Below, piece by piece: positions 4,858-37,800 of a stretch of 64,000 nucleotides of DNA. The translations under genes were made by a program, and so were the position numbers. Source of the stretch: Ignavibacteriota bacterium. Its GTDB lineage: Bacteria; Bacteroidota; Ignavibacteria; UBA10030. The notes beneath the pieces were generated by a model. The model was given only the letters and a program-made list of their open reading frames with translations. It ran no database searches and was not told the origin of the DNA. The stretch is from positions 2,400,001 through 2,464,000 of the forward strand of contig OY969585.1 in the NCBI GenBank assembly GCA_963701295.1, read 5' to 3'. Position 1 is the first letter of the stretch. The number at the start of each line of letters is the position of its first letter.

Positions 4858-5070
4858 ACATAACCAGCAACTAAAGCTGACGGAATGAGCCCGCCAAAAA
4901 GACGGCGGGCAAGCGTGGTACGTTAAGCATGGCTTTTGGTGGGTTTCAGTTTCATTATTACGTTTTTTGTACTTCATGACTTTTGTGTAATTAATTTTGT
5001 ATTCAGTATGAACTCGTTTTCAAAAATTTGAAAATTATCAGCGCCGCAGCTTAGTGCCAATCCGTTAGAA
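4858..5070 (+). repeat. attC-like site (213 bp)
   Basis: ACATAAC-CAGCA-ACTAAAGCTGAC ... CGCAGCTTAGTGCCAATCC-GTTAGAA; internal hairpin GCCCGCC-AAAAAGAC-GGCGGGC. Confidence 0.85.
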
Positions 5071-5191
5071 CGCACGAATTATATATGGCGTAATTACTCT
5101 AGATTATATGCCGCGCAGCTTGATGATTGGTTTCGCAAAAGAAGTCTGTGGCTTGAACCAATTGAGGAGAACTATACATACTGGAGGCACA

Positions 5192-7216
5192 ATGTCACGA
5201 TTTAATTTATTATTTATGTTTCTGTTTTGTGCGTTTCAACTTAGTCAATCGCAACTGAGGTATGTGACTGCGGCAAATACGAGTACTATAACTAGCTACG
5301 GTTACGAATACCAAATGACGATTCAAAACAAGAGCAATGTTCTGATTGCTTTCAAAAGAGGTACAGGAGCAACTTCAGCAGACAGAGAAATTCGAGTTGC
5401 ATACTCTGCAGATGCCGGTCGTTCTTTTACTGAATCCAATATAACCATTCCTACTAATACTGGTACCTTTAGTCCAGTTATATCTAGCACCACAAGTTCC
5501 GTTGTCGCCATCTATCAGTATGATTCAAGTGTGACAAGAAATGTGTGTTTAGCGCGATCAACAAATGGGGGCAGTTCATTCACCTTGTCTTCTGTAGCCA
5601 ACTCAAATCTAAGTAATGCATGGTTAGAGACATTCATTTCTGATGGTGTTTCGAAATACTATGTTGGTGATAATTTTTACTTGTTCGCTTCGACTGACGA
5701 TGGCGTCTCATTCAAACAAATGAAAACCCCTTCAGATATGTCGTCCGGATCTGTATCTTATGCTCGTTGGGTAGCAACTCCTAATTATTTGTGGGTTGTG
5801 TATAATAAAGAAGCTGGAGATTCAATTTATGTTTATCGATCTAGCGACAACGGTAATACCTATCAATTCATAACCCAATACTTCGTAGATTTTCCATCCA
5901 ATTATCTTTTTTCCTGTTATGCAGTGGGTGATCAATTGTATATTTCTTGGGTTCACGAGGAAGTCGGAACATACTCGCTCAGAATGAGGACCATCACTGG
6001 AACTACAGTTGGCCCAATAAGAGATGTTCTTGTAACAACATCTAGCATCGACAAACCAATTTTGAAGAAAACTTCTGGTCGGGTTTTTATAGGAGTCTCT
6101 GATCAAATATTTCAATCAACAGACTCGGGTAATACTTGGAGTAGGGGTTCTGATGTGACCACGGAGATAAAAAATATAAAAAGCTCTCCAAACCTAAACG
6201 ACTTCATTCCATTGGATGACACGACCATATATTTGCACCTCAATAGTGATTTAACAGGATCATTGACACAGATTCTTTTTGCCAATTGGAAATGGACTGA
6301 TTTTCCAATAACTGATCTGACTGATGATACATTGATTACATTAAGTTCATCCGTCGACATTGGTTGGTGGAATCGTTACGTTGAAACGCCCATATACCGT
6401 TTGCAGATGTCAAATTCTCCGAGTTTTTCTCAGGTCATCTTTGATACTCTTGGAACATACTACTCATACATTCCTATGAAGAAAAGATTCCAAGCAAACG
6501 AAACAAGGTATTACTACCGAGTTCGTGGAGAGGATAATGGATACAATACTTCCTGGTCCCCGACGAAATCTTTCCGCTACGGTTCATCCATCACAGGTTC
6601 ACCTTCTCTCACCGCACCCATAAATGGCAGTACAGTAACCTATCCCAATATTGTCAATTTCCAATGGGGATCTGTAACCAATGCCGATAATTATGTCTTC
6701 CATATGTCGTCCACAACCACTTTTACAGATACACTCAATTATTTTGACTGGTTATCTGAAACTAAGACATCAGCTTTCCCTTGGAAGGGCGGTCTCCCGA
6801 TTTTGAATGGTACTTTCTATTGGCGTGTCAGAGGATTGGAGTATGAAACTGGAAGTACTGGCCCTTGGAGCGTCACGTGGAGCTTCAACTATACCGGGGC
6901 AACAGGGGTGTCTGAGGAACAAGTTGTAATTCCAAAAGACTATTCATTATCTCAGAATTTTCCTAATCCATTCAATCCATCCACAAGGATCACTTTTACA
7001 CTTCCGTTTCGTTCAAGAGTTACAGTCTACATATACAACATACTGGGTCAAGTAGTATCACGACTTTTGGATACCGATCTGGAAAAGGGATTCAAGTCTA
7101 TTGATTGGGAAGCTACGGTTTCCAGCGGAACGTACATCCTTCGCCTTGAGGCTATTTCTCTTCAAAATCCGAATGTCCATTTCGAGAGCACAAGGAAAAT
7201 GATTTTAATGCGATAA
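5192..7216 (+). CDS. BNR/Asp-box beta-propeller (sialidase-like fold) with FN3-like domains and T9SS CTD
   Basis: Repeated S-x-D-x-G-x-[ST]-[FWY] boxes; GGAGG RBS before ATG 5192; CTD. Confidence 0.75.
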   Translation: MSRFNLLFMFLFCAFQLSQSQLRYVTAANTSTITSYGYEYQMTIQNKSNVLIAFKRGTGATSADREIRVAYSADAGRSFTESNITIPTNTGTFSPVISSTTSSVVAIYQYDSSVTRNVCLARSTNGGSSFTLSSVANSNLSNAWLETFISDGVSKYYVGDNFYLFASTDDGVSFKQMKTPSDMSSGSVSYARWVATPNYLWVVYNKEAGDSIYVYRSSDNGNTYQFITQYFVDFPSNYLFSCYAVGDQLYISWVHEEVGTYSLRMRTITGTTVGPIRDVLVTTSSIDKPILKKTSGRVFIGVSDQIFQSTDSGNTWSRGSDVTTEIKNIKSSPNLNDFIPLDDTTIYLHLNSDLTGSLTQILFANWKWTDFPITDLTDDTLITLSSSVDIGWWNRYVETPIYRLQMSNSPSFSQVIFDTLGTYYSYIPMKKRFQANETRYYYRVRGEDNGYNTSWSPTKSFRYGSSITGSPSLTAPINGSTVTYPNIVNFQWGSVTNADNYVFHMSSTTTFTDTLNYFDWLSETKTSAFPWKGGLPILNGTFYWRVRGLEYETGSTGPWSVTWSFNYTGATGVSEEQVVIPKDYSLSQNFPNPFNPSTRITFTLPFRSRVTVYIYNILGQVVSRLLDTDLEKGFKSIDWEATVSSGTYILRLEAISLQNPNVHFESTRKMILMR

Positions 7217-7268
7217 TGCACAAAAATGTCAATCGGATCAGAAGTGACAATTGTTCAAGCTGCGCGGC

Positions 7269-7406
7269 ATATAATAACCAAAAGCACTATGCTCACATCA
7301 TTTGATATGGATTATAGAGTTCGCTCAATGCAGTTTGCCGCGTGTTGGTCGATTCGCTCTTTTGATAGCGGCAAACTGTGTTGCGTGCTTTTGGTAAACG
7401 TTATAT
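7269..7406 (+). repeat. Divergent attC-like hairpin of a different family
   Basis: ATATAAT-AA-CCAAAAGCAC ... GTGCTTTTGG-TAAAC-GTTATAT with inner inverted repeat CAGTTTGCCGC/GCGGCAAACTG. Confidence 0.5.
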
Positions 7407-7438
7407 AAAATATGACAATATAAAAGGAGGAAGAAGAA

Positions 7439-8506
7439 ATGGCTAAAATATTTACTATAAATATTGATAAATTGTCAACCATGAATGAAAGGCGACTGGA
7501 AAAAGAAGATGTGCTTCACAACCATCTCGAAAAATTCCCTGAGATTATTGCTGAGGCGTTAGATACGGATAATCCACGCAAGTTCATAGTACTCAATAGA
7601 GAAGCAGGGGTAGTTGGCTTCTCTATGGATTTACTTCTTCTCGACCAGAATTATATATTAACAGTGGTTGAAGCCAAGCGAGCAGAAAGTACAGACTTGA
7701 GAAGGAAAATCATTGGGCAAGGTATTGAATATGCAGCGAACCTTGTGATTGTATGGAAGACAAAAAAAATACTCGAACAAGCGAAGGATTATTGGAACGG
7801 CAAGGGAAAGAAACTTCTCGATGAGATAAATACCACCTTTGAACCAGAAGAACCAATAGAGGACGATAATATACTCCTTCAAAAGGTGCAAGAAGGACTC
7901 GATAACTTGCAGATAATATTTGCAGCAGATGGTCCATTTCCCAATGAACTGAAAACTGCCATAGAGTTCTTAAATAAGAATTTTAAAACTATCAAAGTAT
8001 ATGGTCTTGAAGTAAGATACTTCGGAGAAGAAAAGGGACAGCATATTATAACTCCATTAATCGTCGGCCGAACAACTGAAGCAGAAATTGGTAAGTCAAC
8101 AACAAAACAGTGGACAGAAGAGATGTTCCTTTCTGAATTAAAGAAGATATGCGGGGATGACACTGATAAAATCAGAGTTGCAGAAGATTTGCTTAACTTT
8201 TCTAAAGATGAAGGTTCCAAGAATCCGTTTGAGAAAGGTCCGTCAGTATCAGGCAATTTTAATTTCTACGTTAAAGAAGGGACTAAAGACTATGCGCTAT
8301 TTTATGTAAATGCTTTAGGTAATATTTATTTTTATGGATTACAAAATAAAATTCTCTTCACAAAGGAATTAATAAATATTGGTTTTGAGATTTTACCAGA
8401 GAAAAAGGAGAGTCTATTGAGTCTTGGTATTCTGGAGGATCCTGAAAAACTGAAGAATTTCAAGAACATAATAAGGACATACGTTAAAAGTAAATCTGAA
8501 AATTAG
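7439..8506 (+). CDS. PD-(D/E)XK nuclease-like protein (NucS-C/restriction endonuclease-like)
   Basis: E...MDLLLLD...VVEAKR...IIGQGIEY motif; strong AGGAGG RBS. Confidence 0.65.
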   Translation: MAKIFTINIDKLSTMNERRLEKEDVLHNHLEKFPEIIAEALDTDNPRKFIVLNREAGVVGFSMDLLLLDQNYILTVVEAKRAESTDLRRKIIGQGIEYAANLVIVWKTKKILEQAKDYWNGKGKKLLDEINTTFEPEEPIEDDNILLQKVQEGLDNLQIIFAADGPFPNELKTAIEFLNKNFKTIKVYGLEVRYFGEEKGQHIITPLIVGRTTEAEIGKSTTKQWTEEMFLSELKKICGDDTDKIRVAEDLLNFSKDEGSKNPFEKGPSVSGNFNFYVKEGTKDYALFYVNALGNIYFYGLQNKILFTKELINIGFEILPEKKESLLSLGILEDPEKLKNFKNIIRTYVKSKSEN

Positions 8507-8794
8507 CATGCAGTTAAAATGAGGCATGCATCAGAGAATAAAATATTATATGGTTATTTTGCTTTTAATTGGATCCAACTAATTCTTTTGCACATGTATT
8601 GAATATAAATATTCTACAGCGTGCGTTCTAACCATTTTAAAAAGGAAAGAGTCAAGTAAATAGTAATCTCCCGATGCGTCCCGCAGCAGCGGGATGCGGA
8701 GTTCTTTGAGAGTGATGACGACCGAACACGGCCGGCAGACAGCGATGAGAGAAGCCGCATTATCTATCGAGCAGAACGCCACGACCAGGCAATG

Positions 8795-8965
8795 ACGTCC
8801 AAACCATTTTTCGGATTAACCTCCAATTCATCAAAATACCGATGGTGGAAGCATGTCTCGTCCAAGCGAGAGGTTCCAGATATTTTCACGGCGCAACGCC
8901 TGACTTCCCAATCCAGCGGACGATGCTCTTACGGCATCAGTGAGGAAAGCGGGCTTGTCAGGCGC
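8795..8965 (-). ncRNA. Putative bridge/seekRNA of IS copy 1
   Basis: Stems CGCCTGAC/GTCAGGCG and GATGC/GCATC flank guide-like segments; CCATTTT (8804-8810) matches this copy's own end. Confidence 0.65.
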
Positions 8966-9942
8966 GGCCATTGCTGAGATTTCTGTCGGTTGATCGGCTG
9001 CCCTTTGAGACCATTATATGATGTTTTGTTCTTTAAGACATAGTAAACAATCTTTGCAAGCTCCTTCGCAAGAACAGCATAGGCGGTTGGCTCGTTAGAT
9101 CGACGAGCTAATTTCTGAAAGAGACGTTTGTATTCAGGATAATACTGAACAGCATGGACAGCGGCATCAGAGAAGGCGATTTTGAGATACTTATTGCCGT
9201 CTTTGCTGGAACGGTGGTGCACGGAACGATTGGGGTTATCAGCCGCAGGGACAAGTCGGCAGTACGAGACAAATCTCTTATCAGAGTCGAAGCGTTCGAT
9301 ACCGTCGATCTCAAGATACACCGTGAAGGCTGAGAGCTTGCCGATCCCTGGGATGTGCAGGAGACGTTGAATATCGTCATTGGGGATCAGGATCGGATGG
9401 AGAGATTTTTCCAGAGCGAGGATCTGAGAGGTGAACATATCGCGAGTATGTTCCAGCACAGCAGTCTGGAAGCGATAGGGATCATGGACAGAGCCGTTAA
9501 ATTTGGCGTGAATGCTGTAGAGACGCAGCAGACAGGCAGAGCGTTGCTGAACGAGCCGTAAGCGAATGCGCATGGTATCTCGTAAGCCGCGAAGATCGCG
9601 GCTGATTTTATGAGCTTGGGGAATGAGTCCCTGCCGTAAGAGGATAGCGAGAGTTTGCGAATCAACTTTATCGGTCTTAACTTTAGCATAGCTGATGGCT
9701 TTGAGATATTTTGCGTGAGCAAGGACGAGATCGATGCCGTGGTCTTCGAGTAAATCGTTGAGCCAGTACCACCCGGTGGTAGACTCGACGACAGCCTGAT
9801 GGGAACCAGGCAAGGAATGGAAGTAATCGAGAACCACCTCGTTGCTATTCTCGACGCGTTGTTGTTTGATGACAGCACCGGTGTCATCGACAGTGGTGAT
9901 ATAACTATTATCAGAGTGCAAATCGATACCTGAGTAATACAT
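8929..9942 (-). CDS. IS110-family recombinase/transposase, possibly inactive
   Basis: GIDLH, VVEST, KTDKVD (DEDD); IPGIG; LVPAADNPN has Pro where copy 2 has the expected catalytic Ser. Confidence 0.92.
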   Translation of the reverse strand: MYYSGIDLHSDNSYITTVDDTGAVIKQQRVENSNEVVLDYFHSLPGSHQAVVESTTGWYWLNDLLEDHGIDLVLAHAKYLKAISYAKVKTDKVDSQTLAILLRQGLIPQAHKISRDLRGLRDTMRIRLRLVQQRSACLLRLYSIHAKFNGSVHDPYRFQTAVLEHTRDMFTSQILALEKSLHPILIPNDDIQRLLHIPGIGKLSAFTVYLEIDGIERFDSDKRFVSYCRLVPAADNPNRSVHHRSSKDGNKYLKIAFSDAAVHAVQYYPEYKRLFQKLARRSNEPTAYAVLAKELAKIVYYVLKNKTSYNGLKGQPINRQKSQQWPRLTSPLSSLMP

Positions 9943-10283
9943 GGGAATCTCCTATTGTTGATGATGAATGTTTAATTCTTCAAGCTAAACATACAAAATC
10001 GGGAGGTTCCTTTTTGGTAATATCTAACAACTCAAGCTGACGAAATGAGCGCCCGCCCAAAGATAAAGCTTGGCGGGTAAATGGGTACGTTAAGCATGGC
10101 TAATAGAGGTTTAGATGTTTAATAATAAACTTATCAGAATGAACTATAGAAGAGGAAACACGCTGCGCGTGTTACAGTTATGGGGCTCCGCCTGTTATCA
10201 GTAACTTGCGGCTTCTCGTTGACGCAGCTTAGTTGCCAATCGTTAGGGCACAATTACTCATTCATTAGTTAGCTGGAAGATTT

Positions 10284-12890
10284 ATGAAAAACCTTTTATG
10301 CTTTTTTATTCTCCTCGTTTTTGCATCTTTGCTGTGTTATGCCAATCCAGGCAGAGGCAGAGTTAAAATAGCTCACGGTACAATAGTTACCGACAAAGGC
10401 ACTTTACTGCGCGGCTGCGTTGTTGGAACTGATATCGTCGGATATACCCGTGAACAATTCAATTCAATTAAAGAATACGGATTAAATACGTGTCATTTAG
10501 GTGTATGGAACGTGTCTGATGTAGGCACAGAATTAGCAGCTTCTATTGATAGTATAGTAAAATGGACTGAAGAAGACTCACTTTACCTGATTATTACACC
10601 GACATCTGGAGCAGCATGGAATCCATTATTTGGCCTGGTTGATAGTACGAATTATAAATGTACATTGGATTTTTGGAAATTTTACGCCCCGAGGTATAAA
10701 GACAAAACACATGTTATATACGAACTCGTAAATGAACCTTGTCAGTATCTCCATAGTTCAGACACGTTGCCAAGATTTTACAGTGATGGCTATAAGATTA
10801 TGCGTGATTCGGCCCCGGATACACATATTATTTTGCCAATTATTTGGTCAGCTGATTGGGATCCTTGGCATATGAAGGCTTGGGCAAATATTGAAAGTGA
10901 TATTAAAAGGTTAACGGATAGAGGGGTAGATATGTCGAATGTATCCATTTCATTTCATACCTATGGTTTCAGCGGTATAGCCCTGGATAGCATTTTGCTT
11001 TGTTTTAGAGCTTTAGGCCATTCTTTTATTTGTACAGAAATGCCGGCGTTTTTTAATATCTATTTACAAGATGCACATCTTAATTTCAAGGATGTTAAGA
11101 TTTATGAGAAAGACTCTGTGTCGTATGTTTATATACTTTCATTAAGCGATTTGTCACAAAATGAAAAATACAAAGATGTTTTAGAAGATTATGGCATTTC
11201 CTGGGCCCCTGATTTTGGAAAATGGCCTTACACGATAAAATCGGATACCAGGACATGGAATGCCAGTCAGCCTATTGGCGCTGAATGGTTCGATATAGGA
11301 GCGGATTCCAGTATAGCTGGTATATATTCCCAATTATATTATGTTGAAATTTGTCTGCCGAATCTTCCATGGATAATGTTTAAAAAAGTTGATTTCAATA
11401 AAGCAATCGGCTGTAATATCAGGATTGCAAGCACTGATGCCACCAATGATGATAATATCGAATTGCACCTTGATTCACTCACGGGGAAGAAAATTGGTGA
11501 ACTTACCAATTTTTATACAGGTGGGGATGATATCTGGCAAACATTTAGTTTCAAGATTGATACAACGGATGGGATACATGCTATCTATTTCGTAGTCCAT
11601 GGAGAAGCAAAAATCGAATGGTTTTATTTTAGCCAGGAAAGTGGAACCAGTCAAATACTGCAAATACCAAAATGCAGTACCCCGCCGGTTATTGATGGCG
11701 TGCTCGATGATATCTGGAATTATACTTATGCAGTCCCGTTATTAAATTATCAGGCAGGTCTTGATACACCGAAGTCATATATCGATCACTTCAGCACTTT
11801 ACGTACCATGTGGGACGATAATTATTTTTATGCATTTGTCCATGTCATGGACGATATAATTTGCGCAGGAAATCCAGCTCCGTGGAAAAATGATGCCATT
11901 GAACTATACTTTGATGGGGGAAATGATAAAACTCCCTTTAATGGGGTTCCCGATTATGATGCTAATGATAGACAATGGATATGGGTTTATGGCATACAGG
12001 ACACCAGTTCACTTCCTGTCAGCAGTTTTTGGAGGGGCCCCGGCAATTGGGTGTGGAAAAAAACTGCTGTGGGTTACGACTTTGAATTAAAAATCCCTAA
12101 AGATTCGCTTACTTTTCCATTGGTTGCGGGCCATGCAATTGGGTTTGAAATAGCAAATGATGATTGTGATAATAATATACAAGGACGTACCAATACTAAC
12201 CAGTGGTGGTCATCAAGCCCAGATGCCTGGAAGGATGCATCGGTATTTGGGACAGCATTGTTGAAGGATGGCAAATTAATTTACAGTTCGCCTCCTGCAC
12301 CTGTTCTTCTTGCTTGTGCACACAATGCAAAAGATCAACCGACAACGTTGACATTAAGCTGGAAACCATCTGCCCGCGCTTCAACCTACCAATTGCAGGT
12401 TGCAACAAGTTCTAATTTCGGGAGCGGACTGGTAGCTAACGATTCAACAATTATTGATCCCGTGAAGAAAGTTGGTTCACTTTCTCTTAATGTAACGTAT
12501 TACTGGAGAGTGCGTGCTGCAAATGCTTCAGGAAAAAGCGGTTGGTCGGAAATTTGGCAATTCACAACTTCAAAAAATACTGGAGTATCTGAGGAAGTGA
12601 ATATTCCATTAATTTACTCTCTAAGTCAAAACTACCCTAACCCGTTCAATCCATCGACGACAATAAAATATTCTCTTCCCGATCGAAGCCAAGTAAGACT
12701 TCAAATATTCAACATTCTTGGACAGATGGTAAAGGAACTTGTTAATAATGAACAAACAGCAGGATATAAATATGTTGTCTGGAATGCAAACGTATCGTCG
12801 GGATTGTATATCTATCGACTTGAGGCAACATCGAAAGACAATCCTTCGAAACGATTTATCAATACGAAGAAAATGATTTTGATAAAATGA
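10284..12890 (+). CDS. GH5-family glycoside hydrolase with CBM6, CBM9-like and FN3 domains and T9SS CTD
   Basis: HVIYELVNEP acid/base and ICTE nucleophile motifs; IELHLDSLTG...TGGDDIWQT (CBM6); PVIDGVLDDIW (CBM9-like); CTD. Confidence 0.8.
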   Translation: MKNLLCFFILLVFASLLCYANPGRGRVKIAHGTIVTDKGTLLRGCVVGTDIVGYTREQFNSIKEYGLNTCHLGVWNVSDVGTELAASIDSIVKWTEEDSLYLIITPTSGAAWNPLFGLVDSTNYKCTLDFWKFYAPRYKDKTHVIYELVNEPCQYLHSSDTLPRFYSDGYKIMRDSAPDTHIILPIIWSADWDPWHMKAWANIESDIKRLTDRGVDMSNVSISFHTYGFSGIALDSILLCFRALGHSFICTEMPAFFNIYLQDAHLNFKDVKIYEKDSVSYVYILSLSDLSQNEKYKDVLEDYGISWAPDFGKWPYTIKSDTRTWNASQPIGAEWFDIGADSSIAGIYSQLYYVEICLPNLPWIMFKKVDFNKAIGCNIRIASTDATNDDNIELHLDSLTGKKIGELTNFYTGGDDIWQTFSFKIDTTDGIHAIYFVVHGEAKIEWFYFSQESGTSQILQIPKCSTPPVIDGVLDDIWNYTYAVPLLNYQAGLDTPKSYIDHFSTLRTMWDDNYFYAFVHVMDDIICAGNPAPWKNDAIELYFDGGNDKTPFNGVPDYDANDRQWIWVYGIQDTSSLPVSSFWRGPGNWVWKKTAVGYDFELKIPKDSLTFPLVAGHAIGFEIANDDCDNNIQGRTNTNQWWSSSPDAWKDASVFGTALLKDGKLIYSSPPAPVLLACAHNAKDQPTTLTLSWKPSARASTYQLQVATSSNFGSGLVANDSTIIDPVKKVGSLSLNVTYYWRVRAANASGKSGWSEIWQFTTSKNTGVSEEVNIPLIYSLSQNYPNPFNPSTTIKYSLPDRSQVRLQIFNILGQMVKELVNNEQTAGYKYVVWNANVSSGLYIYRLEATSKDNPSKRFINTKKMILIK

Positions 12891-13054
12891 GATAATTATG
12901 TCCTAACCAGTTTAAAAAGGAAAGAGTCAAGTAAATAATATACTCCCGATGCGTTCCGCGCAATCGGAATGCAGAGTTCTTTAACATTAAGGACGACCGA
13001 ATCCGTGCCGATGCCGCGTTCTCTATCGAATAGACAGGCGATTACCAGAGCAAT

Positions 13055-13229
13055 GCCGTCCAAACCAGTTTACGGATTTACATTCACTCATTGAAGAAAC
13101 GATGGTGAAAGCGTATCTCGTCGAGCGAGATGTTCCAGATATTACCACGGCACAGCGCACTCTCTTCCCAATCCAGCGAACGATCCCGACGCAGTCGGGA
13201 TCAGTTAGGAAAGCGGGCTTGAGAGGCGC
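13055..13229 (-). ncRNA. Putative bridge/seekRNA of IS copy 2
   Basis: Two internal loops whose four segments match the attC target (CCTAAC, CCAGC) and the IS ends (GGTAATATC, CCAGTTTA). Confidence 0.75.
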
Positions 13230-14206
13230 GGCCACTGCTGAGATTTATGCCGGCTGATCGGCTGACCTTTGAGACCTTTATATATTGTTTTGTTTTTTAA
13301 GACATAGTAAACAATCTTCGCAAGTTCTTTGGCAACGACGGTTCGCGCAGTCGCCTCATTGGAGCGACGAGCTAATTTCTGGAATAAGCGTTTGTATTCC
13401 GGATAGTACTGAATAGCATGAACAGCGGCATCGGAGAAGGCGATTTTGAGATACTTATTGCCGTCTTTGCTGGAGCGATGGTGCACAGAGCGATTGGAGT
13501 TATCGGCAGCAGGGACGAGTCGGCAGTAAGAGACAAACTTTTTATCGGAGTCGAATCGTTCAATGCCGTCGATTTCAAGATACACCGTGAATGCGGTGAG
13601 CTTGCCGATACCTGGAATGTGCAAGAGCCGTTGAATATCGTCGTTGGGAATCAGCACAGGATGGAGAGATTTTTCCAGCGAGAGGATCTGAGCAGTAAAA
13701 GTGTCTCTGGTATGTTGCAAGACAGCAAGTTGAAAACGATACGGATCCGGAACAGAGCCGTTAAATTTGGTCTGAATACTGTAGAGACGCAGAAGACTGG
13801 CAGTTCGTTGCTGAACGAGCCGTAGACGAATACGCATGGTATCGCGCAGGCCGCGTAGTTCTCGGCTGATTTTGTGAGCCCGTGGAATGAGTCCCTGTCG
13901 TAAGAGAAGAGCAAGAGTTTGCGAATCGACTTTATCTGTTTTAACTTTAGCATAACTGATGGCTTTGAGATATTTGGCGTGAGCAAGGACAAGCTCGATG
14001 CCGTGATCGCTGAGAAGATCGTTGAGCCAGTACCATCCTGTGGTAGACTCAACGACTGCGTGATGAGGACCGGGCAGAGAGTGGAAGTAATCAAGAACAC
14101 GTTCATTGTTATTCTCGACACGTTGTCGCTTGATGACAGCACCAGTGTCATCAACAGTGGTGATAAAACAATTATCAGAATGCAAATCGATACCTGAGTA
14201 ATACAT
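13205..14206 (-). CDS. IS110-family recombinase/transposase (intact motifs)
   Basis: MYYSGIDLH start with AAGGAG RBS; DEDD motifs; LVPAADNS retains the Ser. Confidence 0.93.
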   Translation of the reverse strand: MYYSGIDLHSDNCFITTVDDTGAVIKRQRVENNNERVLDYFHSLPGPHHAVVESTTGWYWLNDLLSDHGIELVLAHAKYLKAISYAKVKTDKVDSQTLALLLRQGLIPRAHKISRELRGLRDTMRIRLRLVQQRTASLLRLYSIQTKFNGSVPDPYRFQLAVLQHTRDTFTAQILSLEKSLHPVLIPNDDIQRLLHIPGIGKLTAFTVYLEIDGIERFDSDKKFVSYCRLVPAADNSNRSVHHRSSKDGNKYLKIAFSDAAVHAIQYYPEYKRLFQKLARRSNEATARTVVAKELAKIVYYVLKNKTIYKGLKGQPISRHKSQQWPRLSSPLS

Positions 14207-14464
14207 GGGAATCTCCTTAGATTGTGGATGTTGGTGACCTAGAGAATTATCAATGTACATAATCGGGAGATTCCTTTTTGGTAATATCCAGCAACTCAAG
14301 CTGACGGAATGAGCGTAAGTAAGTACAAAATTGAAAGAACTAGCATGAACTTGTTTCGTTTAGTATATTTTGAAAGTTATCAGTGTCACAGCTTAACTGC
14401 CATCCGTTAGGCAGCGCAGCGTGCAGTAAGTGCTAATTGAAATAGCAAAAGGAATAAAACGCTT

Positions 14465-15355
14465 ATGATCCGATTATTTGCCATTTTAATGTTTTTATCT
14501 TCTCAAGTTGTGTCTATTGCAACTGCTCAAGATCTCTATTTTCAAAAAAAGACTGCAATAATTCGATGGTCAAATGGGAAAAAAATAGATACTATCTGGC
14601 AGGCACCATTCTCAGTAAATGATATAAGCTTGAGTCAAGATTGCCAATTTATTTGTTTCACAAAATCTGTAGTCAACGATAATTCTCGATCTGAAAGGGA
14701 AGTTGGATACTACTCATTAATCGATAAAAAGTTTACAATAATCAAATCTAATACATTATTTAATTATGGAGCCATTATGTCTCCATCAAATGAACTCATT
14801 GCCTTTAGTTATCTTCCTGGGCGCAGGGAATGGAAAACTGCTCTTTATAATCGAATTAAAAATACTTTGAATTATGATGTTGCCCCTTCAATTGCTGGCG
14901 ATGCCTACAATGCATTCAGCTGGCACTCAGATTCATTACTTTGCTTTGCCACGCTTGATAAGATCATTGAGAAGAATATCCACGATAGCACTACGAAAAT
15001 GTTCACACCGCCTGATTCAGAAATGTCGTTCACAGTGCCTGGTACTCAAATGCTATTTCTAAACGATACAGCTTTTGCCTTCGTTTGTGCTGATGTCAGC
15101 CGCCAAATATCTGCTGAATTCGATGGCCCTCCAACAAATGTCTTTCTTACCATTAGTGGAAGTACTGAGAGGCTTTTCTCAAAAAAAGAAGACGTCAATG
15201 CTTGTTTTATTTCTAACAAGAGCATTTATATCGGTTACACTGACTATGCACTTTCAAAAAAAGGTAGAGAAATGCTTGTGCGATATGATATTCGCTCTAA
15301 AAAAAAGGAATTGATAAAATCACTAGGACTTCTTATCGGTGTGTCTCATAATTAA
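14465..15355 (+). CDS. Secreted hypothetical protein, possible TolB-like propeller (cassette)
   Basis: Signal peptide; LSQD/MSPSNELIAFS/FSW repeats; flanked by attC sites. Confidence 0.55.
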   Translation: MIRLFAILMFLSSQVVSIATAQDLYFQKKTAIIRWSNGKKIDTIWQAPFSVNDISLSQDCQFICFTKSVVNDNSRSEREVGYYSLIDKKFTIIKSNTLFNYGAIMSPSNELIAFSYLPGRREWKTALYNRIKNTLNYDVAPSIAGDAYNAFSWHSDSLLCFATLDKIIEKNIHDSTTKMFTPPDSEMSFTVPGTQMLFLNDTAFAFVCADVSRQISAEFDGPPTNVFLTISGSTERLFSKKEDVNACFISNKSIYIGYTDYALSKKGREMLVRYDIRSKKKELIKSLGLLIGVSHN

Positions 15356-15389
15356 AGAGAACAATATCCGTAGAAAGCACTGGCGCGCC

Positions 15390-15584
15390 TTCTAACAAGG
15401 CGCTCAAGCTGACGGAATGAGGGTATGGACGTTAAGCATGCTGGTGGTGGGTTTTCGTTTTTATTATTCAGTTTGTAGTACCTATGACTTTTGTATTTAT
15501 TAATTTAGTTTTTAGCATGAACTCGTTTCGTTATCAGCAGCTTGAAAATTATTAACGCCGCAGCTTAGCGCCCGTCCGTTAGGC
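15390..15584 (+). repeat. attC-like site (195 bp, most canonical copy)
   Basis: TTCTAAC-AA-GGCGCT-C-AAGCTG ... CAGCTT-AGCGCC-CGTCC-GTTAGGC: stem with one unpaired base in the L box and an asymmetric spacer. Confidence 0.92.
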
Positions 15585-15608
15585 AGCCCTTACAAGGAGA
15601 AAAAACCA

Positions 15609-16358
15609 ATGAAAAAAGCAATCGTTGTCATTTTATTGTTGTCATGTCAGACACTTTATACTCAGCAATCTGAACAAAAAACCAATCAGATTTGTGTGCA
15701 AGGTAGTGTTGAATTGAAAGAAATGGCAGATCAGGCAACTTTAAGTTTTTCCGTTAAGGGAGTCGGTGCAAATCTCCGCCAAGCTGTAGAGAATGCTGAC
15801 AAGAATACAAAAGCTATTACAGATAAACTTATGTCATTGGGTATCAAAGAAAAAGATATTTCAACATCATCGTTCTATAGTGGTGAGAATAAAGGCGACA
15901 AGGCATTTCTATCCTCAAGTAGGGATTATCAGGCACATATAACGACCGTGATTAAAGTTGATAGTTTAAAATTATTGCAACCTATTCTGTTTGCAATAAG
16001 CGAATCTGATGTGCAAAACATATCTCAAATCATATTTTCTTTAAAAGATGAAGTTGGTTTTCGGCGAAGAGCGCGGATTGAAGCTGCTCTCAAAGCAAAA
16101 GAGAAAGCAGAGGACATGACGAAAGCTTTAAATATCACACTGGGAAGAGTGCTTTCTATCGATGAAGTGCAACCAACTCAATCTCGCCCAACATCTTTGT
16201 TGTCAAGAAGCGGAGTACCAAATCCATTTAATCCTATTTCATTCAACACGGTTGTTGGTCTTCAAGCCGGAGGTGTTGATGAGAGCATCGGGTCTGGTTT
16301 CTTTGCTCAGACAATTTCTGTCACGAGTCAGGTTTATGTAATATTTGAAATTAAATAA
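15609..16358 (+). CDS. SIMPL/DUF541 domain protein (cassette)
   Basis: ICVQGSVE..ADQATLSFSV; AALKAKEKAEDMTKALNITLGRVLSIDE. Confidence 0.85.
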   Translation: MKKAIVVILLLSCQTLYTQQSEQKTNQICVQGSVELKEMADQATLSFSVKGVGANLRQAVENADKNTKAITDKLMSLGIKEKDISTSSFYSGENKGDKAFLSSSRDYQAHITTVIKVDSLKLLQPILFAISESDVQNISQIIFSLKDEVGFRRRARIEAALKAKEKAEDMTKALNITLGRVLSIDEVQPTQSRPTSLLSRSGVPNPFNPISFNTVVGLQAGGVDESIGSGFFAQTISVTSQVYVIFEIK

Positions 16359-16364
16359 GAGCCG

Positions 16365-16523
16365 TCCTAACCAGGCGCTCAAGTTGACCGAATGAGCATG
16401 AGTGCATTAAGCATGGCGAGCATAGGTCTTGGTGTCTAATAATAAACTTTTCAGCATGAACTTGTTTCGTTTTGTGTATTTTGAAAGTTTTCAACATGGA
16501 AGCTTAGCCGCCATCCGTTAGGC
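16365..16523 (+). repeat. attC-like site (159 bp)
   Basis: TCCTAAC-CAGGC-GCTCAAGTTGAC ... AGCTTAGCCGCCATCC-GTTAGGC. Confidence 0.9.
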
Positions 16524-16551
16524 GCATTTTAAAATTATAGGAGAATGCTTA

Positions 16552-16929
16552 ATGAGCGAAAACGACAATTTTAAATATCTGGAACTATATATGAAGCAAA
16601 GCGAGTTCTTCTGGAAATATCAACAGACCGTTTCATTAGTTGAATTGGCTGCATTTGCAGGATGGTACAAACTATTCAAAGGAAGTGATTACTTTTTGGC
16701 AATGGGGGCACTAATATTGGGAAGTATTGTCTTATTCGTTCTATTTTTAATAATCTTACGAGCTGCACAATATCTAAATGCATTAAGGAAATCAGCGTTA
16801 AAAGCACTTCCATCTGATCTTCAACAACCTTTGCTTCATATCAAGAGTTCTCATATTGGTATTGCTATTCCAATAATTTGTATTGTTTTTAACATTGCTT
16901 TAATTCTTTATCAATTAAAATGCACCTAA
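16552..16929 (+). CDS. Small membrane protein (cassette); stop codon lies in the attC R'' box
   Basis: AGGAG RBS; hydrophobic segments; TAA within ACCTAAC. Confidence 0.7.
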   Translation: MSENDNFKYLELYMKQSEFFWKYQQTVSLVELAAFAGWYKLFKGSDYFLAMGALILGSIVLFVLFLIILRAAQYLNALRKSALKALPSDLQQPLLHIKSSHIGIAIPIICIVFNIALILYQLKCT

Positions 16930-16980
16930 CCGCGCTCAAGCTGACAGAATGAGCCGAGGTATGTTAAGCATGGCTGGTTC
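16924..16980 (+). repeat. attC-like left half
   Basis: ACCTAAC-CGC-GCTCAAGCTGACAGAATGAG...GTTAAGCATGG; no adjacent right arm. Confidence 0.8.
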
Positions 16981-19776: not shown

Positions 19777-19804
19777 GATTCCTTGTTTTGCCCATAAAAT
19801 AGAA

Positions 19805-19834
19805 AATCCTCACGGATTTTCATCGATGAGGATT
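19805..19834 (-). terminator. Rho-independent terminator downstream of the tRNA fragment
   Basis: AATCCTCA/TGAGGATT stem with a T-rich tail on the minus strand. Confidence 0.6.
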
Positions 19835-19848
19835 CTCCTTTAGTGTGT

Positions 19849-19887
19849 GTAGCGGGGCAGGACTTGAACCTACAACCTTCGGGTTAT
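19849..19887 (-). pseudogene. 3' half of tRNA-fMet (att-like remnant, copy B)
   Basis: Minus strand ATAACCCGAAGGTTGTAGGTTCAAGTCCTGCCCCGCTAC: anticodon 3' side, T-arm and acceptor; no 5' half. Confidence 0.8.
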
Positions 19888-20048
19888 ATCATTCTAGGGG
19901 AAAATAGGATGGGAGGGGCTTCTAACCAGAATCATAGATATTTCACTTTCACAAAAATTTCAGCAATTAGAATTGAGAATGTATAAAATTTCATAATTCT
20001 TTTTGATCACGAAGAGAAAAAATGAGACTATAATCCATTTTTTTGTAC

Positions 20049-20121: not shown

Positions 20122-20765
20122 GATATGGTAGTAAAAGTGGTAAATTCTTTTCGAATTCGATAGAATTTATGCACAGGGTCGGTTTGAAAATCCATATGTC
20201 GGGGACTCAATTCCCTCCCTGTCCACTGAAAAATCTTCTACCTTTATCCGCAATCCTGTCTGCAATTATTTTTGGAATGCTAAGACTACGGTGTTCGTTA
20301 GGGTTTATAAGCAGCGGGATGGATTTCCTATCCCTTCTTCAGCTTGCAATACCTCATGAGATTACTCTCTTATTTATTGGCACATAATCTGGGGGCAGGT
20401 CACTTCCAGACATTAAACCATTGAAGATGCATTGTCGCAAGTGCTACTTAGAGGTGGAGGTAACAAACCAAGATCTTACAATGTTTTACATAACTCCATC
20501 CTCATATATACGGTGATTACCGTAGATGATACGTATTTTGCCGTAATTTTATAAATAAGGTTTTCCCTTGATCCCTAATGACTTTTTATTCTGTATACTA
20601 ATTCAGTGAATTCAATGATAACATCTTCAAGGGGAAAATTATGGAAAGAAAATAATATTTCTTTTTCATTAGTAATTTTATTGATACAGTTTGATCAACT
20701 AAGCGTAAATATTTACACAATAAAACAGGTTGTGACTCATTTTCATTAACTCTATTAGGGTTTTT

Positions 20766-23402
20766 ATGAAAACCAATAAAAAGAATTCAACAACTGTCTT
20801 AAGCAGATGGACGCGCTTGTCCCGAATGATTCGGGGATTTCTTGAAGTCCCGTTACATGCGGGACTGATATTTGCTTTTATAGCGCCAGTCATTGCTAAA
20901 TCTCAAACTTACTATACAATCAACGAAAATTCATCACCCGTATTTTCTACACTTATCCCAGATGAAGCCTATGTCATAAAGGATAATGTAAATTACAAAC
21001 TCTATTATGCTGGGAATGACTTTACATCAATTAATCTCGCTCAATCACCTGACGGCATAACGTGGACTCCATATAATAGCGGAAATCCTATAATATCAGA
21101 TGCACAATATCATTCAGACGTAAAATACTATAGTACAGGATTCCCAGGAGCAAATAGCGGTACAAATCCAAGCTCATTGACGATGAACTATCGTATATGG
21201 TATCAAGGGTTAAACCAGAATAGCGTAGAAGGATGGAGATATGCTGAATCGCCGGATGGAATAAACTGGTATAATCACATACCCGTTTCCCAATTCGGAG
21301 CACCAGTATATAGTTCCGCCACAGGAGTAACCTATGGAATAGCTGATGTAATCTATACATCGGGAGCATCCAACACAGGAACAGACTGGACATTCAGAAT
21401 ATATGCAAACGTCCAATGGGAACCTGGTCAATACGGTGGAAAGGAACTCGTAGTCATAGCTTTTTCAACAAATGGATATGACTGGACTGGCTATGATCCA
21501 ACATTGGCAGGTTATGCAACACCAGTATTTGCAGGAACTCTAGACACAAGTCGGTTTGACTGCGACCACATAGGATGGTTCAAGGTCATAAAAAACAGTC
21601 CGATAGACTGGCAAGCGTTCTACTCCGGCGGGAAAGGGTCGACGTACCAGGCGTTGAATGGAATAGGCTACGCAACATCGACCGATGGCATAAACTGGAC
21701 ACACAGGCAAACACTCATCACAACAAATGACCCAGTGGCATGGAGAAAACAGAGCGTATGGATGCCATCAGTGGTAAAGTCTGGAAACAACTACGAGCTA
21801 TTTTTCCTCGGATCAGCAGATGTAAGTGACGGAAGTTGGATATGGTGGAAACTCGGAAGAGCTATCTTGACACCCGTTGCTGACCCTTTTGCAGGAATCA
21901 ATTTTGCAGAATATCCCAGCAATCCTTTATTTGGCGGAGATACAGAAGGAGTGGATCGCGCTTATCAAGCATATGTAATAAAAATAGGTGCAGTGTACAA
22001 TATGTGGTACGGGGATCATATTAATGCTAGATATGTCAGTAGTGCATATCCTGATTTCCATGACGTAACATTTCCTGGAACTAAAATCACTGTGCCAAAT
22101 GCAACTCAGCCTTACAAGTTCACAGTATATTATAATTCTGCTGGATGGACTCTTGGAGGAACCAGTTATTCTCAAAAATTAGTCGCCTATTACACTGATA
22201 ATGCAGACAACTTTTCTACAAATCCACAAGTCGCAGTCTCTGATGATGGAATAAATTGGACATATGTAGGGCGGACGAGCGGTGTGATTACCGGCCCACC
22301 TGCTGAGGTTTCAACCGTTTATAGATTATCTGTATTATATGAAGGAAATAATATTTGGAAAGGATATGGCGATCAAGGACAGGCATGGATCCAATATTAT
22401 ACTTCAACCGACGGGATGGCTTGGACAGTACAAGCATGGGACATATTAAATGATCGTAATCCTAGTCTATTACAGCCTTGGGAAATCGGTCCTGGGCCAC
22501 AATATCCTGGAGAAATAAGTCCTTATGTTTTCAAAGTGAATAATACTTATGTGATGACTTATAGCTCTGGCAAAACAAACAACAATCAAGGAATAGGCAT
22601 TGCATATTCTATTGATGGAATAAATTTTACCAAGTCAAGTACAAATCCAATATTTAGTATAGACGATGGCATCGCATGGAAAACTGTTAGAAATTACAAC
22701 GGCTACATAATGCTTGATGCCGGATTGTGGAGAATGTATTTTCAAGGAACAAATGCTGCTGGATTTTATGCTATTGGTATGGCAACTCCAGATGTACCTT
22801 TACCGGTGGAACAGGTATCGTTTACAGCCACAGTGGTAAGCAATGCTGCAACGCTGACATGGCAGACTGCCACGGAAGTCAATAACTATGGCTTTGATGT
22901 TGAACGTCGGTTGGTCAATAGTCAATCGTCAACACTCAATAGTTGGGGAAAGATCGGATTTGTAAAAGGAAGTGGAACGAGTAACATTGCGCATTCATAC
23001 AGCTATACAGATGTGAGTGTTTCGTCGGGAACGTATGCCTATAGGTTAAAGCAAATCGATAACAATGGGACGTATAAGTATTCGAGCGAAGCGGAAGTAA
23101 CGGTTTCGGTGCCGAAAGTATTTGCGCTGAATCAGAACTATCCTAACCCGTTCAACCCGTCGACGACAATCGAATATCAGTTACCAGGAACAGGGACACG
23201 ATTTAATGTGTCCTTAAAAGTGTATGATGTCATTGGGAGGGAGGTTTCAAATCTTGTGAATGAACAGCAGGAACCGGGATATTACCAAAAGACATTTGCT
23301 GCAAGTCGATATGCCAGCGGAATGTATATTTATCGCCTTGTTGCAACAGACGAGCAGAATAAACAGCATATATATCAGAAGAAAATGGTGCTCTTGCGCT
23401 AA
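20766..23402 (+). CDS. Tandem five-bladed beta-propeller glycosidase-like protein (GH32/43/117/130-like fold) with T9SS CTD
   Basis: Repeated A-x-S-x-D-G-I-x-W blades in two domains; PLPVE Ig-like module; YPNPFNPST CTD. Confidence 0.65.
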   Translation: MKTNKKNSTTVLSRWTRLSRMIRGFLEVPLHAGLIFAFIAPVIAKSQTYYTINENSSPVFSTLIPDEAYVIKDNVNYKLYYAGNDFTSINLAQSPDGITWTPYNSGNPIISDAQYHSDVKYYSTGFPGANSGTNPSSLTMNYRIWYQGLNQNSVEGWRYAESPDGINWYNHIPVSQFGAPVYSSATGVTYGIADVIYTSGASNTGTDWTFRIYANVQWEPGQYGGKELVVIAFSTNGYDWTGYDPTLAGYATPVFAGTLDTSRFDCDHIGWFKVIKNSPIDWQAFYSGGKGSTYQALNGIGYATSTDGINWTHRQTLITTNDPVAWRKQSVWMPSVVKSGNNYELFFLGSADVSDGSWIWWKLGRAILTPVADPFAGINFAEYPSNPLFGGDTEGVDRAYQAYVIKIGAVYNMWYGDHINARYVSSAYPDFHDVTFPGTKITVPNATQPYKFTVYYNSAGWTLGGTSYSQKLVAYYTDNADNFSTNPQVAVSDDGINWTYVGRTSGVITGPPAEVSTVYRLSVLYEGNNIWKGYGDQGQAWIQYYTSTDGMAWTVQAWDILNDRNPSLLQPWEIGPGPQYPGEISPYVFKVNNTYVMTYSSGKTNNNQGIGIAYSIDGINFTKSSTNPIFSIDDGIAWKTVRNYNGYIMLDAGLWRMYFQGTNAAGFYAIGMATPDVPLPVEQVSFTATVVSNAATLTWQTATEVNNYGFDVERRLVNSQSSTLNSWGKIGFVKGSGTSNIAHSYSYTDVSVSSGTYAYRLKQIDNNGTYKYSSEAEVTVSVPKVFALNQNYPNPFNPSTTIEYQLPGTGTRFNVSLKVYDVIGREVSNLVNEQQEPGYYQKTFAASRYASGMYIYRLVATDEQNKQHIYQKKMVLLR

Positions 23403-23699
23403 TCACGATTGATATGATTTCTTCTCTGCTGTTCAGACTGCGATTGAAAGTGCAGTGGATAATTTATGGATAGGGGGATAAGTTGATACCCTCCTCAATG
23501 AATGTCGATGGCTGTCTCAAAAAAGCACCACTGTATGTGTGCCCGGTGGTTGTTTGTCTCTCCCCATTAACCCTGACGTTTATGCGTTGGGGTTTTTTGT
23601 TTGTTATTAAAAAACAAATATCGTAGATTTTGAGTAAATATATTGGCTTTGACGAATTCGGAGAGGGGTCGCTCAATGTGTTTGTCCTTTTTGTTCCCA

Positions 23700-23738
23700 T
23701 AGTTTTCAGTGCCGCAGCTTAGCGCCCGTCTGTTAGGC
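23700..23738 (+). repeat. attC-like right half
   Basis: AGTTTTCAGTGCCGCAGCTTAGCGCCCGTCT-GTTAGGC with no adjacent left arm. Confidence 0.8.
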
Positions 23739-23822
23739 GGTGCAATAGAAATAAGGTTGCCATGATTAGTGGATAGTATTATTGCGATAATTCACACTGT
23801 TTCACAATTCCAGAGGTGCAAC

Positions 23823-24488
23823 ATGATGAATACTTATAGTAAACGGTTATGTCTGATGCTCTCCACTGTATTTGTGTTCTTCCTCAGTGGTTGCGCTACA
23901 TCGGGCTATGTTTCTGAAGAACCCGAGGCAAATACAAATGTAGTCGTTCCTGCCTGGGCACCCCCCTACCAAGATATTCATCTTGTCAGATACTACTACC
24001 TGCCCGACATAGAAGTGTACTATGATGTCTGGAACCAGGAGTTCGTTTATCTTCAAGATGGAAGTTGGATGTTTACGTCATCTTTCCCGCCAATCTATAC
24101 AGGATTCGATTTATACAACTGCTTTGTCGTAGTGCTGGACTACCATGTGTACGAACCCTGGATGCATTATCATTATTATGTTTCCCATTATCCACGTTAT
24201 TACTATCATTCAGTTTACAATGTCACCGATACACATGACCTCAGAGGTTTTAATGAAAACAAGGAAAGCGAAATCCGACTTAAACAGGAAGAAAAGATAA
24301 AGCTCAACGAAGCATCGAATAATAGACCTGAACATGAAAAAGTTCTACCCCTTAATCCAGAACTAAAAAAATCTGAATTCAAACGACCACCACAACGAAT
24401 GAAGTATTATGGACAGGATGTTGGCAAACCCGTCAAAGTTGAAAAACAAATGATGAAGCCACATGAAAATATTCAGAAGAATAAATGA
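23823..24488 (+). CDS. Hypothetical lipoprotein (cassette)
   Basis: LSGC lipobox; PAWAP...RYYYLPDIEVYYD. Confidence 0.75.
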   Translation: MMNTYSKRLCLMLSTVFVFFLSGCATSGYVSEEPEANTNVVVPAWAPPYQDIHLVRYYYLPDIEVYYDVWNQEFVYLQDGSWMFTSSFPPIYTGFDLYNCFVVVLDYHVYEPWMHYHYYVSHYPRYYYHSVYNVTDTHDLRGFNENKESEIRLKQEEKIKLNEASNNRPEHEKVLPLNPELKKSEFKRPPQRMKYYGQDVGKPVKVEKQMMKPHENIQKNK

Positions 24489-24644
24489 TGATGGTGTTTG
24501 CTTGGTAAATCTGAAAGGATGGATATGCCTCTATACTGTAAACCAATGGTCCAATTCGCTACTCTATTCTCGAACAATTAGACAAAGGTGACTTCAATCG
24601 CGAACGTACATTGTTAAAAGTCGTTGGTAATAAATAATTGCATC

Positions 24645-24775
24645 GCCTAACCATGCGCTCAAGCTGACAGAATGAGCGTAAGTACATTTTACATTGCGTG
24701 CAGAGATTTAGTGCAGATTTAAAAGTGAAGTGAATGAACTTGGTTCGTGTAGTACATTTTGAAAGTATTCGTTGA
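24645..24775 (+). repeat. attC-like site with decayed right end
   Basis: GCCTAAC-CATGC-GCTCAAGCTGACAGAATGAGC...ATGAACTTGGTTCG...TTTTGAAAGT. Confidence 0.8.
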
Positions 24776-37785: not shown

Positions 37786-37800
37786 GGCGGGAAATAAATC

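What the first reader, a model, noticed from the sequence alone, without database searches (positions are those of the whole stretch)
5064..24651. Cassette ends are complementary well beyond the 7-bp R box, giving each cassette its own terminal inverted repeat
The start of each cassette pairs with its own end, not with its neighbour's. 5064 GTTAGAACGCACG pairs with 8620 CGTGCGTTCTAAC (13/13). 10242 GTTAGGGCACAATTACTCA pairs with 12888 TGAGATAATTATGTCCTAAC (2 mismatches plus 1 indel, reaching the stop codon). 16517 GTTAGGCGCATTTTAA pairs with 16915 TTAAAATGCACCTAAC (15/16, inside the coding end). 23732 GTTAGGCGGTGCAAT pairs with 24637 ATTGCATCGCCTAAC (14/15). Weaker pairing occurs at 15578/16356 and 37779/38423. 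This is what a circular cassette intermediate predicts, and it independently defines the units. The extra cassette-specific length may stabilise these long attC hairpins or reflect how the cassettes were made.
Basis: seen in the sequence. Interest (0 to 1): 0.7.

Follow-up and report, generated by a model that had tools for sequence, protein, structure and literature searches.

The report
Longer self-pairing integron cassette ends
The first and last 13-15 bases of most integron gene cassettes in this bacterium and its close relatives are complementary, a longer form of a pairing already described (9-11 bases) that likely gives the integrase a full double-stranded grip once a cassette is cut out as a circle; the copies in this window are mostly mismatched.

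Summary
The four main pairs read as described, and own ends beat shuffled ends in the window (12 of 40,320 permutations) and genome-wide (0 of 10,000; 91 cassette families). The sites are attC sites (149-213 bp) in arrays far from the genome's single full-length integron integrase.

The phenomenon is known: PMC2727003 says pairing extends to 9-11 nt in most cassettes. I measured medians of 10 (Vibrio), 11 (another family of this phylum) and 9 (other Pseudomonadota); two class 1 cassettes reach 12-13. This genus is shifted: 153 of 241 families pair perfectly over at least 13 bp, against 1-5% elsewhere, and the signal ends at base 15.

Most likely the arm is the outer duplex of the integrase half-site in the excised circle, kept by selection at integration: bases 9-11 match 11-bp repeats in this genus's attI, and predicted R-box pairing rises from 0.39 (array) to 0.75 (circle). 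Arm length does not track attC length. Arms are not unique: identical arms sit on unrelated genes. How they first arise is open. The scan reported this theme before in at least eight other genomes.

The parts
4858..5070 (+). attC site upstream of cassette 1 (R'' 4858-4864, L''/L' stem, crossover G|TT at 5064)
5064..5076 (+). start arm of cassette 1 (5064-8632); member of an end family shared with unrelated cargos
5108..7216 (+). cargo of cassette 1: 702-aa protein with a C-terminal secretion sorting domain (PF18962)
7439..8506 (+). second cargo ORF of cassette 1, 355 aa, no Pfam family
8620..8632 (+). end arm of cassette 1, 13/13 complementary to 5064-5076
8634..10023 (-). IS110/IS1111-type element inserted just after the AAC of the attC of cassette 1; transposase 8929-9942 on the minus strand (ends approximate by 1 base)
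10024..10248 (+). rest of the IS-split attC of cassette 1 (spacer, L'', terminal structure, L', GTT at 10242)
10242..10260 (+). start arm of cassette 2 (10242-12907)
10284..12890 (+). cargo of cassette 2: 868-aa GH5 + CBM6 + CBM9 + sorting domain protein
12888..12907 (+). end arm of cassette 2, two mismatches and one indel against the start
12909..14287 (-). second IS110/IS1111-type element at the same position in the attC of cassette 2 (transposase frame listed as 13205-14299, minus)
14406..15396 (+). cassette 3 (296-aa ORF); eroded arms, 5 contiguous pairs
15390..15584 (+). intact 195-bp attC of cassette 3
15578..16371 (+). cassette 4 (SIMPL/DUF541 protein 15609-16358); eroded arms, 6 contiguous pairs; end arm lies directly behind the stop codon
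16365..16523 (+). 159-bp attC of cassette 4; folds no better than shuffles in its array form (z 0.02)
16517..16532 (+). start arm of cassette 5 (16517-16930)
16915..16930 (+). end arm of cassette 5, 15/16, inside the last codons of ORF 16552-16929; followed by a left-half-only attC
23732..23746 (+). start arm of cassette 6 (23732-24651)
24637..24651 (+). end arm of cassette 6, 14/15; its attC has a damaged right end
37779..38434 (+). eroded cassette (thioredoxin-like ORF 37801-38421); 9 of first 13 positions pair
40094..40756 (+). eroded cassette (199-aa ORF); pairing near background beyond base 7

Best explanation
These are integron gene cassettes whose first and last 13-15 bases are complementary, and the extra paired bases likely form the outer double-stranded part of the site that the integrase grips when the excised circle's attC folds, likely kept intact by selection each time a cassette integrates. 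In the array a cassette's end faces its neighbour's start and only about 6 bases match (shown); excision at G|TT would bring the cassette's own start to its own end and close a 13-15 bp GC-rich stem under the R box (follows from the established mechanism; folding predicted). Bases 1-11 carry a sequence preference (GTTAGGnnGCA) like the 11-bp repeats in this genus's attI, so they likely are the integrase half-site; bases 12-15 pair with little sequence preference and would act as a clamp. The result would favour integration of circles over excision from arrays (inferred). Arms decay once a cassette stops cycling, as in this window (decay pattern shown, cause inferred). The arms pass along cassette lineages and are reused on new cargo (shown for some families); the enzymatic step that first makes them is not shown.
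For: Sharp positional profile ending at base 15, repeated in 149 further families from 6 congeneric genomes. Consensus G9 C10 A11 in the arms matches four 11-bp repeats in attI of this genome and repeats in attI of three relatives, of 7 relatives' loci viewed; class 1 attI1 carries two GTTA-n4-GCA repeats; the family f31 has no such arm consensus and only 1 of 5 of its attI regions showed the motif. Circular attC: R-box pairing probability 0.75 against 0.39 (array) and 0.37 (shuffled), mean 6.6 kcal/mol lower, 69 of 74. Homologous cassettes change both arms together. Where the terminal stem is only 7-9 bp (8 short families), start bases 9-21 pair with an internal copy in 7 of 8, against 3 of 216 controls (these families are related, so this is one or a few events). 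One unpaired position in the cleavage triplet cut recombination from 2.2e-3 to 6e-6 in PMC2811028 (passage).
Against: No experiment or structure here shows that this integrase contacts bases 12-15. Vibrio arms pair to 9-11 with no GCA consensus, so pairing and sequence preference can be uncoupled. Excision must still work from array sites with about 6 matching bases. No excess of bottom-strand G.T wobble among mismatches (15 against 11, p=0.56), which selection on the bottom strand might give. Selection alone does not easily explain 116 different arms among 153 perfect ones or concerted transversions and a concerted indel. The integrase-adjacent array is not the best preserved (5 of 7 perfect stems of 12 or more).
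Confidence: 0.6

Rival explanations
1. The arms are kept identical by a templated step: mismatches in the folded stem of the single-stranded circle are repaired, or one arm is copied from the other, over a patch of about 15 bases. Selection would then be secondary.
For: High diversity with high perfection (116 distinct among 153; 16 of 17 perfect in one array). Concerted changes in this genus include transversions and one indel. Ten of 21 sorting-domain cassettes carry a GCAATT end arm against 4 of 220 others (p=2e-9); their 3' flanks are homologous (score 7.7 against -4.2) but their 5' leaders beyond the arm barely are (-0.5 against -3.6, sd 3.5), as if the start arm were remade.
Against: Outside this genus all concerted changes seen were transitions (8 counted, not independent), as stepwise compensation through wobble pairs predicts. 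Mismatched arms persist in many cassettes. The internal partner in gene-less cassettes is not a terminal copy.
Confidence: 0.2
2. The arms are relics of cassette birth: a circular attC with both arms is a reusable frame, and new genes are joined at the base of its stem, so base 15 marks the donor/cargo border.
For: Identical 13-nt arms in 53 family pairs against 28.6 expected under a first-order model (maximum 52 in 500 simulations), only 3 with protein homology. The 5064 cassette shares about 30-45 nt of leader and 20-30 nt of trailer with four cassettes of unrelated cargo (family picked by motif). A non-cassette homologue (58%) of the SIMPL cargo ends at nearly the same residue and shows no arms (one case). 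Most stop codons lie upstream of the arm.
Against: Same-arm cassettes do not share the attC body more than others (0.22 against 0.29, p=0.06, wrong direction). The excess of identical arms is under twofold and the null was fitted to the same data. It does not explain arm-length differences between integrons by itself. It is compatible with the best explanation.
Confidence: 0.15
3. The longer arm is purely a thermodynamic clamp for long attC sites with a wide unpaired spacer (or for a warm habitat), unrelated to integrase contacts.
For: attC here is 149-213 bp against 57-141 bp in PMC5027507 (passage), with an 8-nt right spacer. Arm duplex energy -17.5 against about -10.5 kcal/mol elsewhere. 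An array of 57-bp sites has median 7.
Against: No link to own attC length within the genome (p=0.87); f31 with mostly 90-bp sites has 11 and Vibrio with ~125-bp sites has 10. It does not explain the attI-like consensus. No growth temperature is known.
Confidence: 0.1
4. The pairing is chance plus a shared consensus at cassette ends.
For: Positions 5-6 and 9-10 match often in shuffled pairs too.
Against: 0 of 10,000 permutations genome-wide; 12 of 40,320 in the window; replicated in six other genomes.
Confidence: 0.01

Closest known systems
Extended R'/R'' pairing of integron cassettes (Bouvier et al. 2009, PMC2727003, introduction; it cites Rowe-Magnus 2003 and Sundstrom 1991, neither of which I could read)
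   Same: Own start pairs with own end beyond the 7-nt box; same crossover triplet; same attC anatomy; my Vibrio measurement (median 10, 120 families) reproduces the stated 9-11 nt.
   Different: Here 13-15 bp: 153 of 241 families reach 13 or more, against 6 of 120 (Vibrio), 3 of 93 (f31) and 1 of 83 (other Pseudomonadota) (the last two sets not collapsed to families); arms are GC-rich (0.68 against 0.45) with a G9-C10-A11 preference.
Sedentary chromosomal integrons and CALINs (Vibrio cholerae VchIntIA/VCR, PDB 2A3V; CALIN definition in PMC8618304, passage)
   Same: Full-length integron integrase (TIGR02249 453 bits; 2A3V E=4e-86 over 312 residues), homogeneous attC family, several arrays far from the integrase gene.
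   Different: attC 149-213 bp with an 8-nt right spacer; many cassettes of 2-4 kb with secreted multi-domain proteins; attI with two tandem inverted-repeat pairs.
Class 1 integron cassettes (blaGES-5, aac(6')-Ib4 on NZ_KX912255.1)
   Same: 13 and 12 contiguous end pairs, so single classical cassettes reach the lower edge of this range.
   Different: Only 2 cassettes read; these are acquired cassettes with short attC sites.
IS1111-attC group (described in PMC11187229, passages; original papers seen only in its reference list)
   Same: DEDD transposase elements inserted at one fixed position in attC, non-coding region downstream of the transposase.

Membership tests
Integron (IntI/attI/attC) | Integron integrase with the IntI-specific extra segment | tested here: met
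   G000:C1:3566706-3567665 matches TIGR02249 positions 1-314 at 453 bits, cut-off 265; aligns to 2A3V over 7-318 with a single one-residue gap. It lies about 1.1 Mb from the window.
Integron (IntI/attI/attC) | attI beside intI with a G|TT crossover followed by the first cassette | tested here: met
   Repeats then GTT upstream of intI; the unit's start matches an end 1.6 kb on at 15 of 16 bases. By sequence only.
attC site | R''-spacer-L'' ... L'-spacer-R' with AAC/GTT and pairing L boxes | tested here: met
   144 left and 149 right arm hits, a few of them false; 95 complete sites.
attC site | Two extrahelical bases (G and T on the bottom strand) 6 bp apart | tested here: met
   Top-strand C and A at these places; seen as bulges in the predicted fold of the 15390-15584 site.
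attC site | Usual size: 57-141 bp, spacers of 5-6 nt (typical range in PMC5027507, not a strict criterion) | tested here: not met
   149-213 bp; right spacer 8 nt.
Gene cassette | Tandem same-strand units, mostly one ORF, bounded by GTT and AAC | tested here: met
Gene cassette | Excised as circles and recombined by IntI through the folded bottom strand | not testable with these tools
   The one public run holding part of the integrase-adjacent array is kept as contigs and gave no informative joint.
Known extended R-box pairing (9-11 nt) | Own ends pair beyond 7 nt | tested here: met
   the length here (13-15) exceeds the stated range
IS1111-attC group | DEDD transposase, fixed insertion point in attC, non-coding region downstream of the gene | tested here: met
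   PF01548 + PF02371; both window copies sit right after AAC-C; about 295 nt between gene end and element end.
IS1111-attC group | Subterminal inverted repeats of 11-13 bp; transposase phylogeny | tested here: inconclusive
   An 8-bp subterminal repeat is visible; no tree was built.

The most novel reading that the evidence does not exclude
The 13-15 bp arm pair is made by a templated step or handed on as a frame when a cassette is born, so its outer edge marks the junction between a donor attC and a newly captured gene. This lineage, with long high-information arms, hundreds of cassettes, identical arms on unrelated genes and gene-less framed cassettes, would then let one trace cassette genealogy and test how integron cassettes are created.
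Probability: 0.2. Interest if true: 0.75.

Novelty: new variant of a known kind. Interest (0 to 1): 0.3.

Why it matters
The pairing itself is in print, so the window adds no new system. What it adds is a measured, lineage-wide longer arm next to a classical integrase, with a defined end at base 15, a sequence preference shared with attI, and decay in arrays that seem inactive. That gives a simple test of how far an integron integrase needs duplex beyond the R box, a way to rank arrays by how recently their cassettes cycled, and, if arms prove to be templated or inherited as frames, a handle on cassette formation, which reviews list as unsolved (PMC5371416, PMC8618304, passages).

Tried and rejected
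Rfam scan of the window: 0 matches at gathering scores; no tRNA in the window. A hard ceiling at 16 bp, suggested by this genome (13 reach 16, 0 reach 17), was rejected: 5 of 33 pooled families go on to 17. Link of arm length to own attC length: none; to cassette length: rho 0.19, p=0.11. Strand bias of wobble mismatches: none. Arms plus attC body inherited as one unit: not supported. Direction of copying from homologues: the 125-aa cargo has only two other homologues (82% with the same C-terminus, 62% with a different one), without DNA context, so no verdict. Generic attC detector: of 77 loci screened, 14 arrays outside this genus had three or more sites and went into; it found only part of the sites in the V. 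cholerae control locus (7 calls, one mis-paired, against 14 motif matches), so it is insensitive and absence of arrays elsewhere means nothing. Sequencing runs: no RNA holder listed; one DNA run with a fifth of the words, contigs only; joints fell in attC repeats with short sides. Rowe-Magnus 2003 (PMC430272) is not held. No protein fold or complex was predicted, since neither bears on a DNA contact. Supplements were not read; supplementary attC alignments of the cited papers could show longer arms.
Full report
WHAT IS THERE. The window (G000:C1:2400001-2464000 of a 3.64-Mb single-contig genome) holds a broken array of integron cassettes. A repeat with a left arm (TAAC, spacer, TCAAGCTGAC) and a right arm (GCAGCTTA, spacer, GTTAG) occurs about 145 times in the genome, in nine main clusters on both strands; 95 complete sites measure 149-213 bp. 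One full-length integron integrase lies 1.1 Mb away (TIGR02249, 453 bits; closest solved structure 2A3V), divergent from an attI and its own array. In the window two attC sites are split by IS110/IS1111-type elements inserted right after the AAC, others are truncated or damaged. Earlier AI notes on this genome call it Ignavibacteria-like; I did not test that label.

THE OBSERVATION. For eight window cassettes, own ends match at 44 of 72 positions 8-16, cross pairs at 21.3; 12 of 40,320 permutations reach the observed value. To avoid picking by pairing, I defined ends genome-wide from the L boxes or the IS junction: 107 units, 2 dropped, 105 kept, 91 families. Match rate is 0.85-0.89 at positions 7-12, then 0.80, 0.62, 0.51, 0.36, then background; no permutation of 10,000 reaches it; the neighbour pairing that exists in the array equals shuffled. 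In stretches of six congeneric genomes, 149 further families give the same profile. Pooled, 241 families continue from 13 to 14 in 115 of 153, 14 to 15 in 80 of 115, 15 to 16 in 33 of 80 and 16 to 17 in 5 of 33: the signal ends at about base 15, without a hard ceiling. The window's array is the most eroded by mean mismatch count: 1 of 11 perfect stems of 12 or more, against 16 of 17 and 15 of 20 in two others.

IS IT SPECIAL? Only in length. Vibrio cassettes (120 families from loci) pair at 0.92, 0.88, 0.62, 0.62 at positions 8-11 and at background from 12, median 10. Arrays beside integrases elsewhere give median 11 for family f31 of the same phylum (88 families, mostly 90-bp attC), 9 for other Pseudomonadota (73 families) and 7 for one array of mostly 57-bp sites. 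Two class 1 cassettes give 13 and 12. Perfect stems of 13 or more: 153 of 241 here, 6 of 120, 3 of 93 and 1 of 83 elsewhere (kin are not independent, so the p-values overstate). PMC2727003 states that for most cassettes pairing extends beyond the 7-nt boxes to 9-11 consecutive nt (passage), and PMC5371416 notes that R' does not match R'' in the array (passage). In nine literature searches I saw no paper that measures arm length per integron or tests bases beyond the box; the library lacks most subscription journals, and I read only passages of eight papers (PMC5027507, PMC5371416, PMC2727003, PMC8946536, PMC3053210, PMC11187229, PMC8618304, PMC2811028). The scan's own notes report the theme in at least eight other genomes, several with longer stems and atypical recombinases (unchecked); this case has a classical integrase and a milder shift.

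HOW IT LIKELY WORKS. Established: IntI recombines the folded bottom strand of attC, cutting in the AAC of the R box, and excision gives a circle in which a cassette's start meets its end (PMC5027507, PMC5371416). Computed: rebuilding the circular attC for 74 cassettes raises the probability that the R triplet is paired from 0.39 (array) or 0.37 (random start) to 0.75 and lowers the energy by 6.6 kcal/mol on average, in 69 of 74. Seen: arms prefer G9, C10, A11 (0.77, 0.87, 0.53), and attI holds two tandem inverted pairs of an 11-bp repeat with the same bases, also found in attI of three relatives among seven relatives' loci viewed; attI1 has two such GTTA-n4-GCA repeats. Family f31 lacks the arm consensus. 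Half-sites of 11-13 bp are usual for tyrosine recombinases (recalled). Seen: homologous cassettes change both arms together. Inferred: the start strand must be duplex well past base 7 for good integration, bases 1-11 being the half-site and 12-15 a clamp; selection acts only in the circle, so arms decay in arrays that stop cycling; circles would integrate better than array sites excise.

AGAINST, AND WHAT IS OPEN. Mismatches show no bottom-strand wobble bias. Vibrio arms pair without a consensus. Selection does not say how 116 different arms among 153 arose. Evidence for inheritance and reuse: 53 identical-arm pairs against 28.6 expected, 50 without protein homology; the 5064 cassette shares leader and trailer with four unrelated cassettes; sorting-domain cassettes share one arm type (10 of 21 against 4 of 220) with weak leader homology; a non-cassette homologue of the SIMPL cargo shows no arms. 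Against a fixed donor unit: same-arm cassettes do not share the attC body. Concerted changes are transitions outside this genus but include transversions and an indel inside it, too few to separate stepwise compensation from templated repair.

VERDICT. Real, statistically strong, and a longer variant of a published property of ordinary integron cassettes. It works like, and by the tested features is, a classical attC/IntI system with oversized attC sites. Interest 0.3; the bold reading (arms mark how cassettes are born) has about 0.2 probability.

Noticed in passing
window 5108-7216, 10284-12890, 1479-4847; genome-wide: Large secreted carbohydrate-active proteins with a C-terminal sorting domain sit inside cassettes of 2-3.6 kb; 17 of 98 ORFs ending in this domain are followed by an attC or IS-split attC. 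PMC5371416 describes chromosomal cassettes as usually short.
   Followed up: partly
window 8634-10023 and 12909-14287; genome-wide: IS110/IS1111-type elements target one position of this attC family: 17 left and 11 right junctions in the genome; a guide RNA may lie in the ~295-nt region downstream of the transposase.
   Followed up: partly
G000:C1 230358, 230792, 232040, 1799387, 2478234, 2478694, 2481890, 2485959 and others; relatives: Multi-copy gene-less cassettes (157-320 bp) with an 8-bp terminal stem and a 13-bp GC-rich internal stem; the most repeated cassettes in the genus (13 copies of one family). Already noted as e1-7611664.
   Followed up: partly
G000:C1 about 3566410-3566510 (L001); L007, L014, L020: attI is built from two tandem inverted pairs of an 11-bp repeat; the G009 copy lacks the first pair.
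   Followed up: partly
G000:C1 251861, 1157272, 3159810, 2826433, 2821613, 1045255: In six attC sites the R'' box is replaced by a short GC-rich hairpin directly before L''; similar hairpins lie inside the attC at window ~4890 and ~10050. Possibly the end of another attC-targeting element.
   Followed up: no
window 829-901, 19785-19890, 40821-40893: Three copies of a 73-nt repeat, two joined to truncated attC left halves; the copy at 19850-19890 reads on the minus strand like the 3' half of a tRNA (resemblance recalled; no second match in the genome at 6 mismatches). Possible island junctions that broke up the array.
   Followed up: partly
window 25248-25285: A collapsed attC remnant in which the left and right L boxes are fused.
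   Followed up: no
L261, L263-L265, L267, L270, L272 (family f31): A mostly 90-bp attC family with a 9-nt right spacer in several genomes of the same phylum; integron integrases occur in 88 of 301 sampled genomes of the phylum.
   Followed up: partly
window 43164-62610: An ordinary-looking galactan/galactose use cluster (TonB receptor, LacI regulator, galK, galT, GH42, two GH53, MFS transporter).
   Followed up: no
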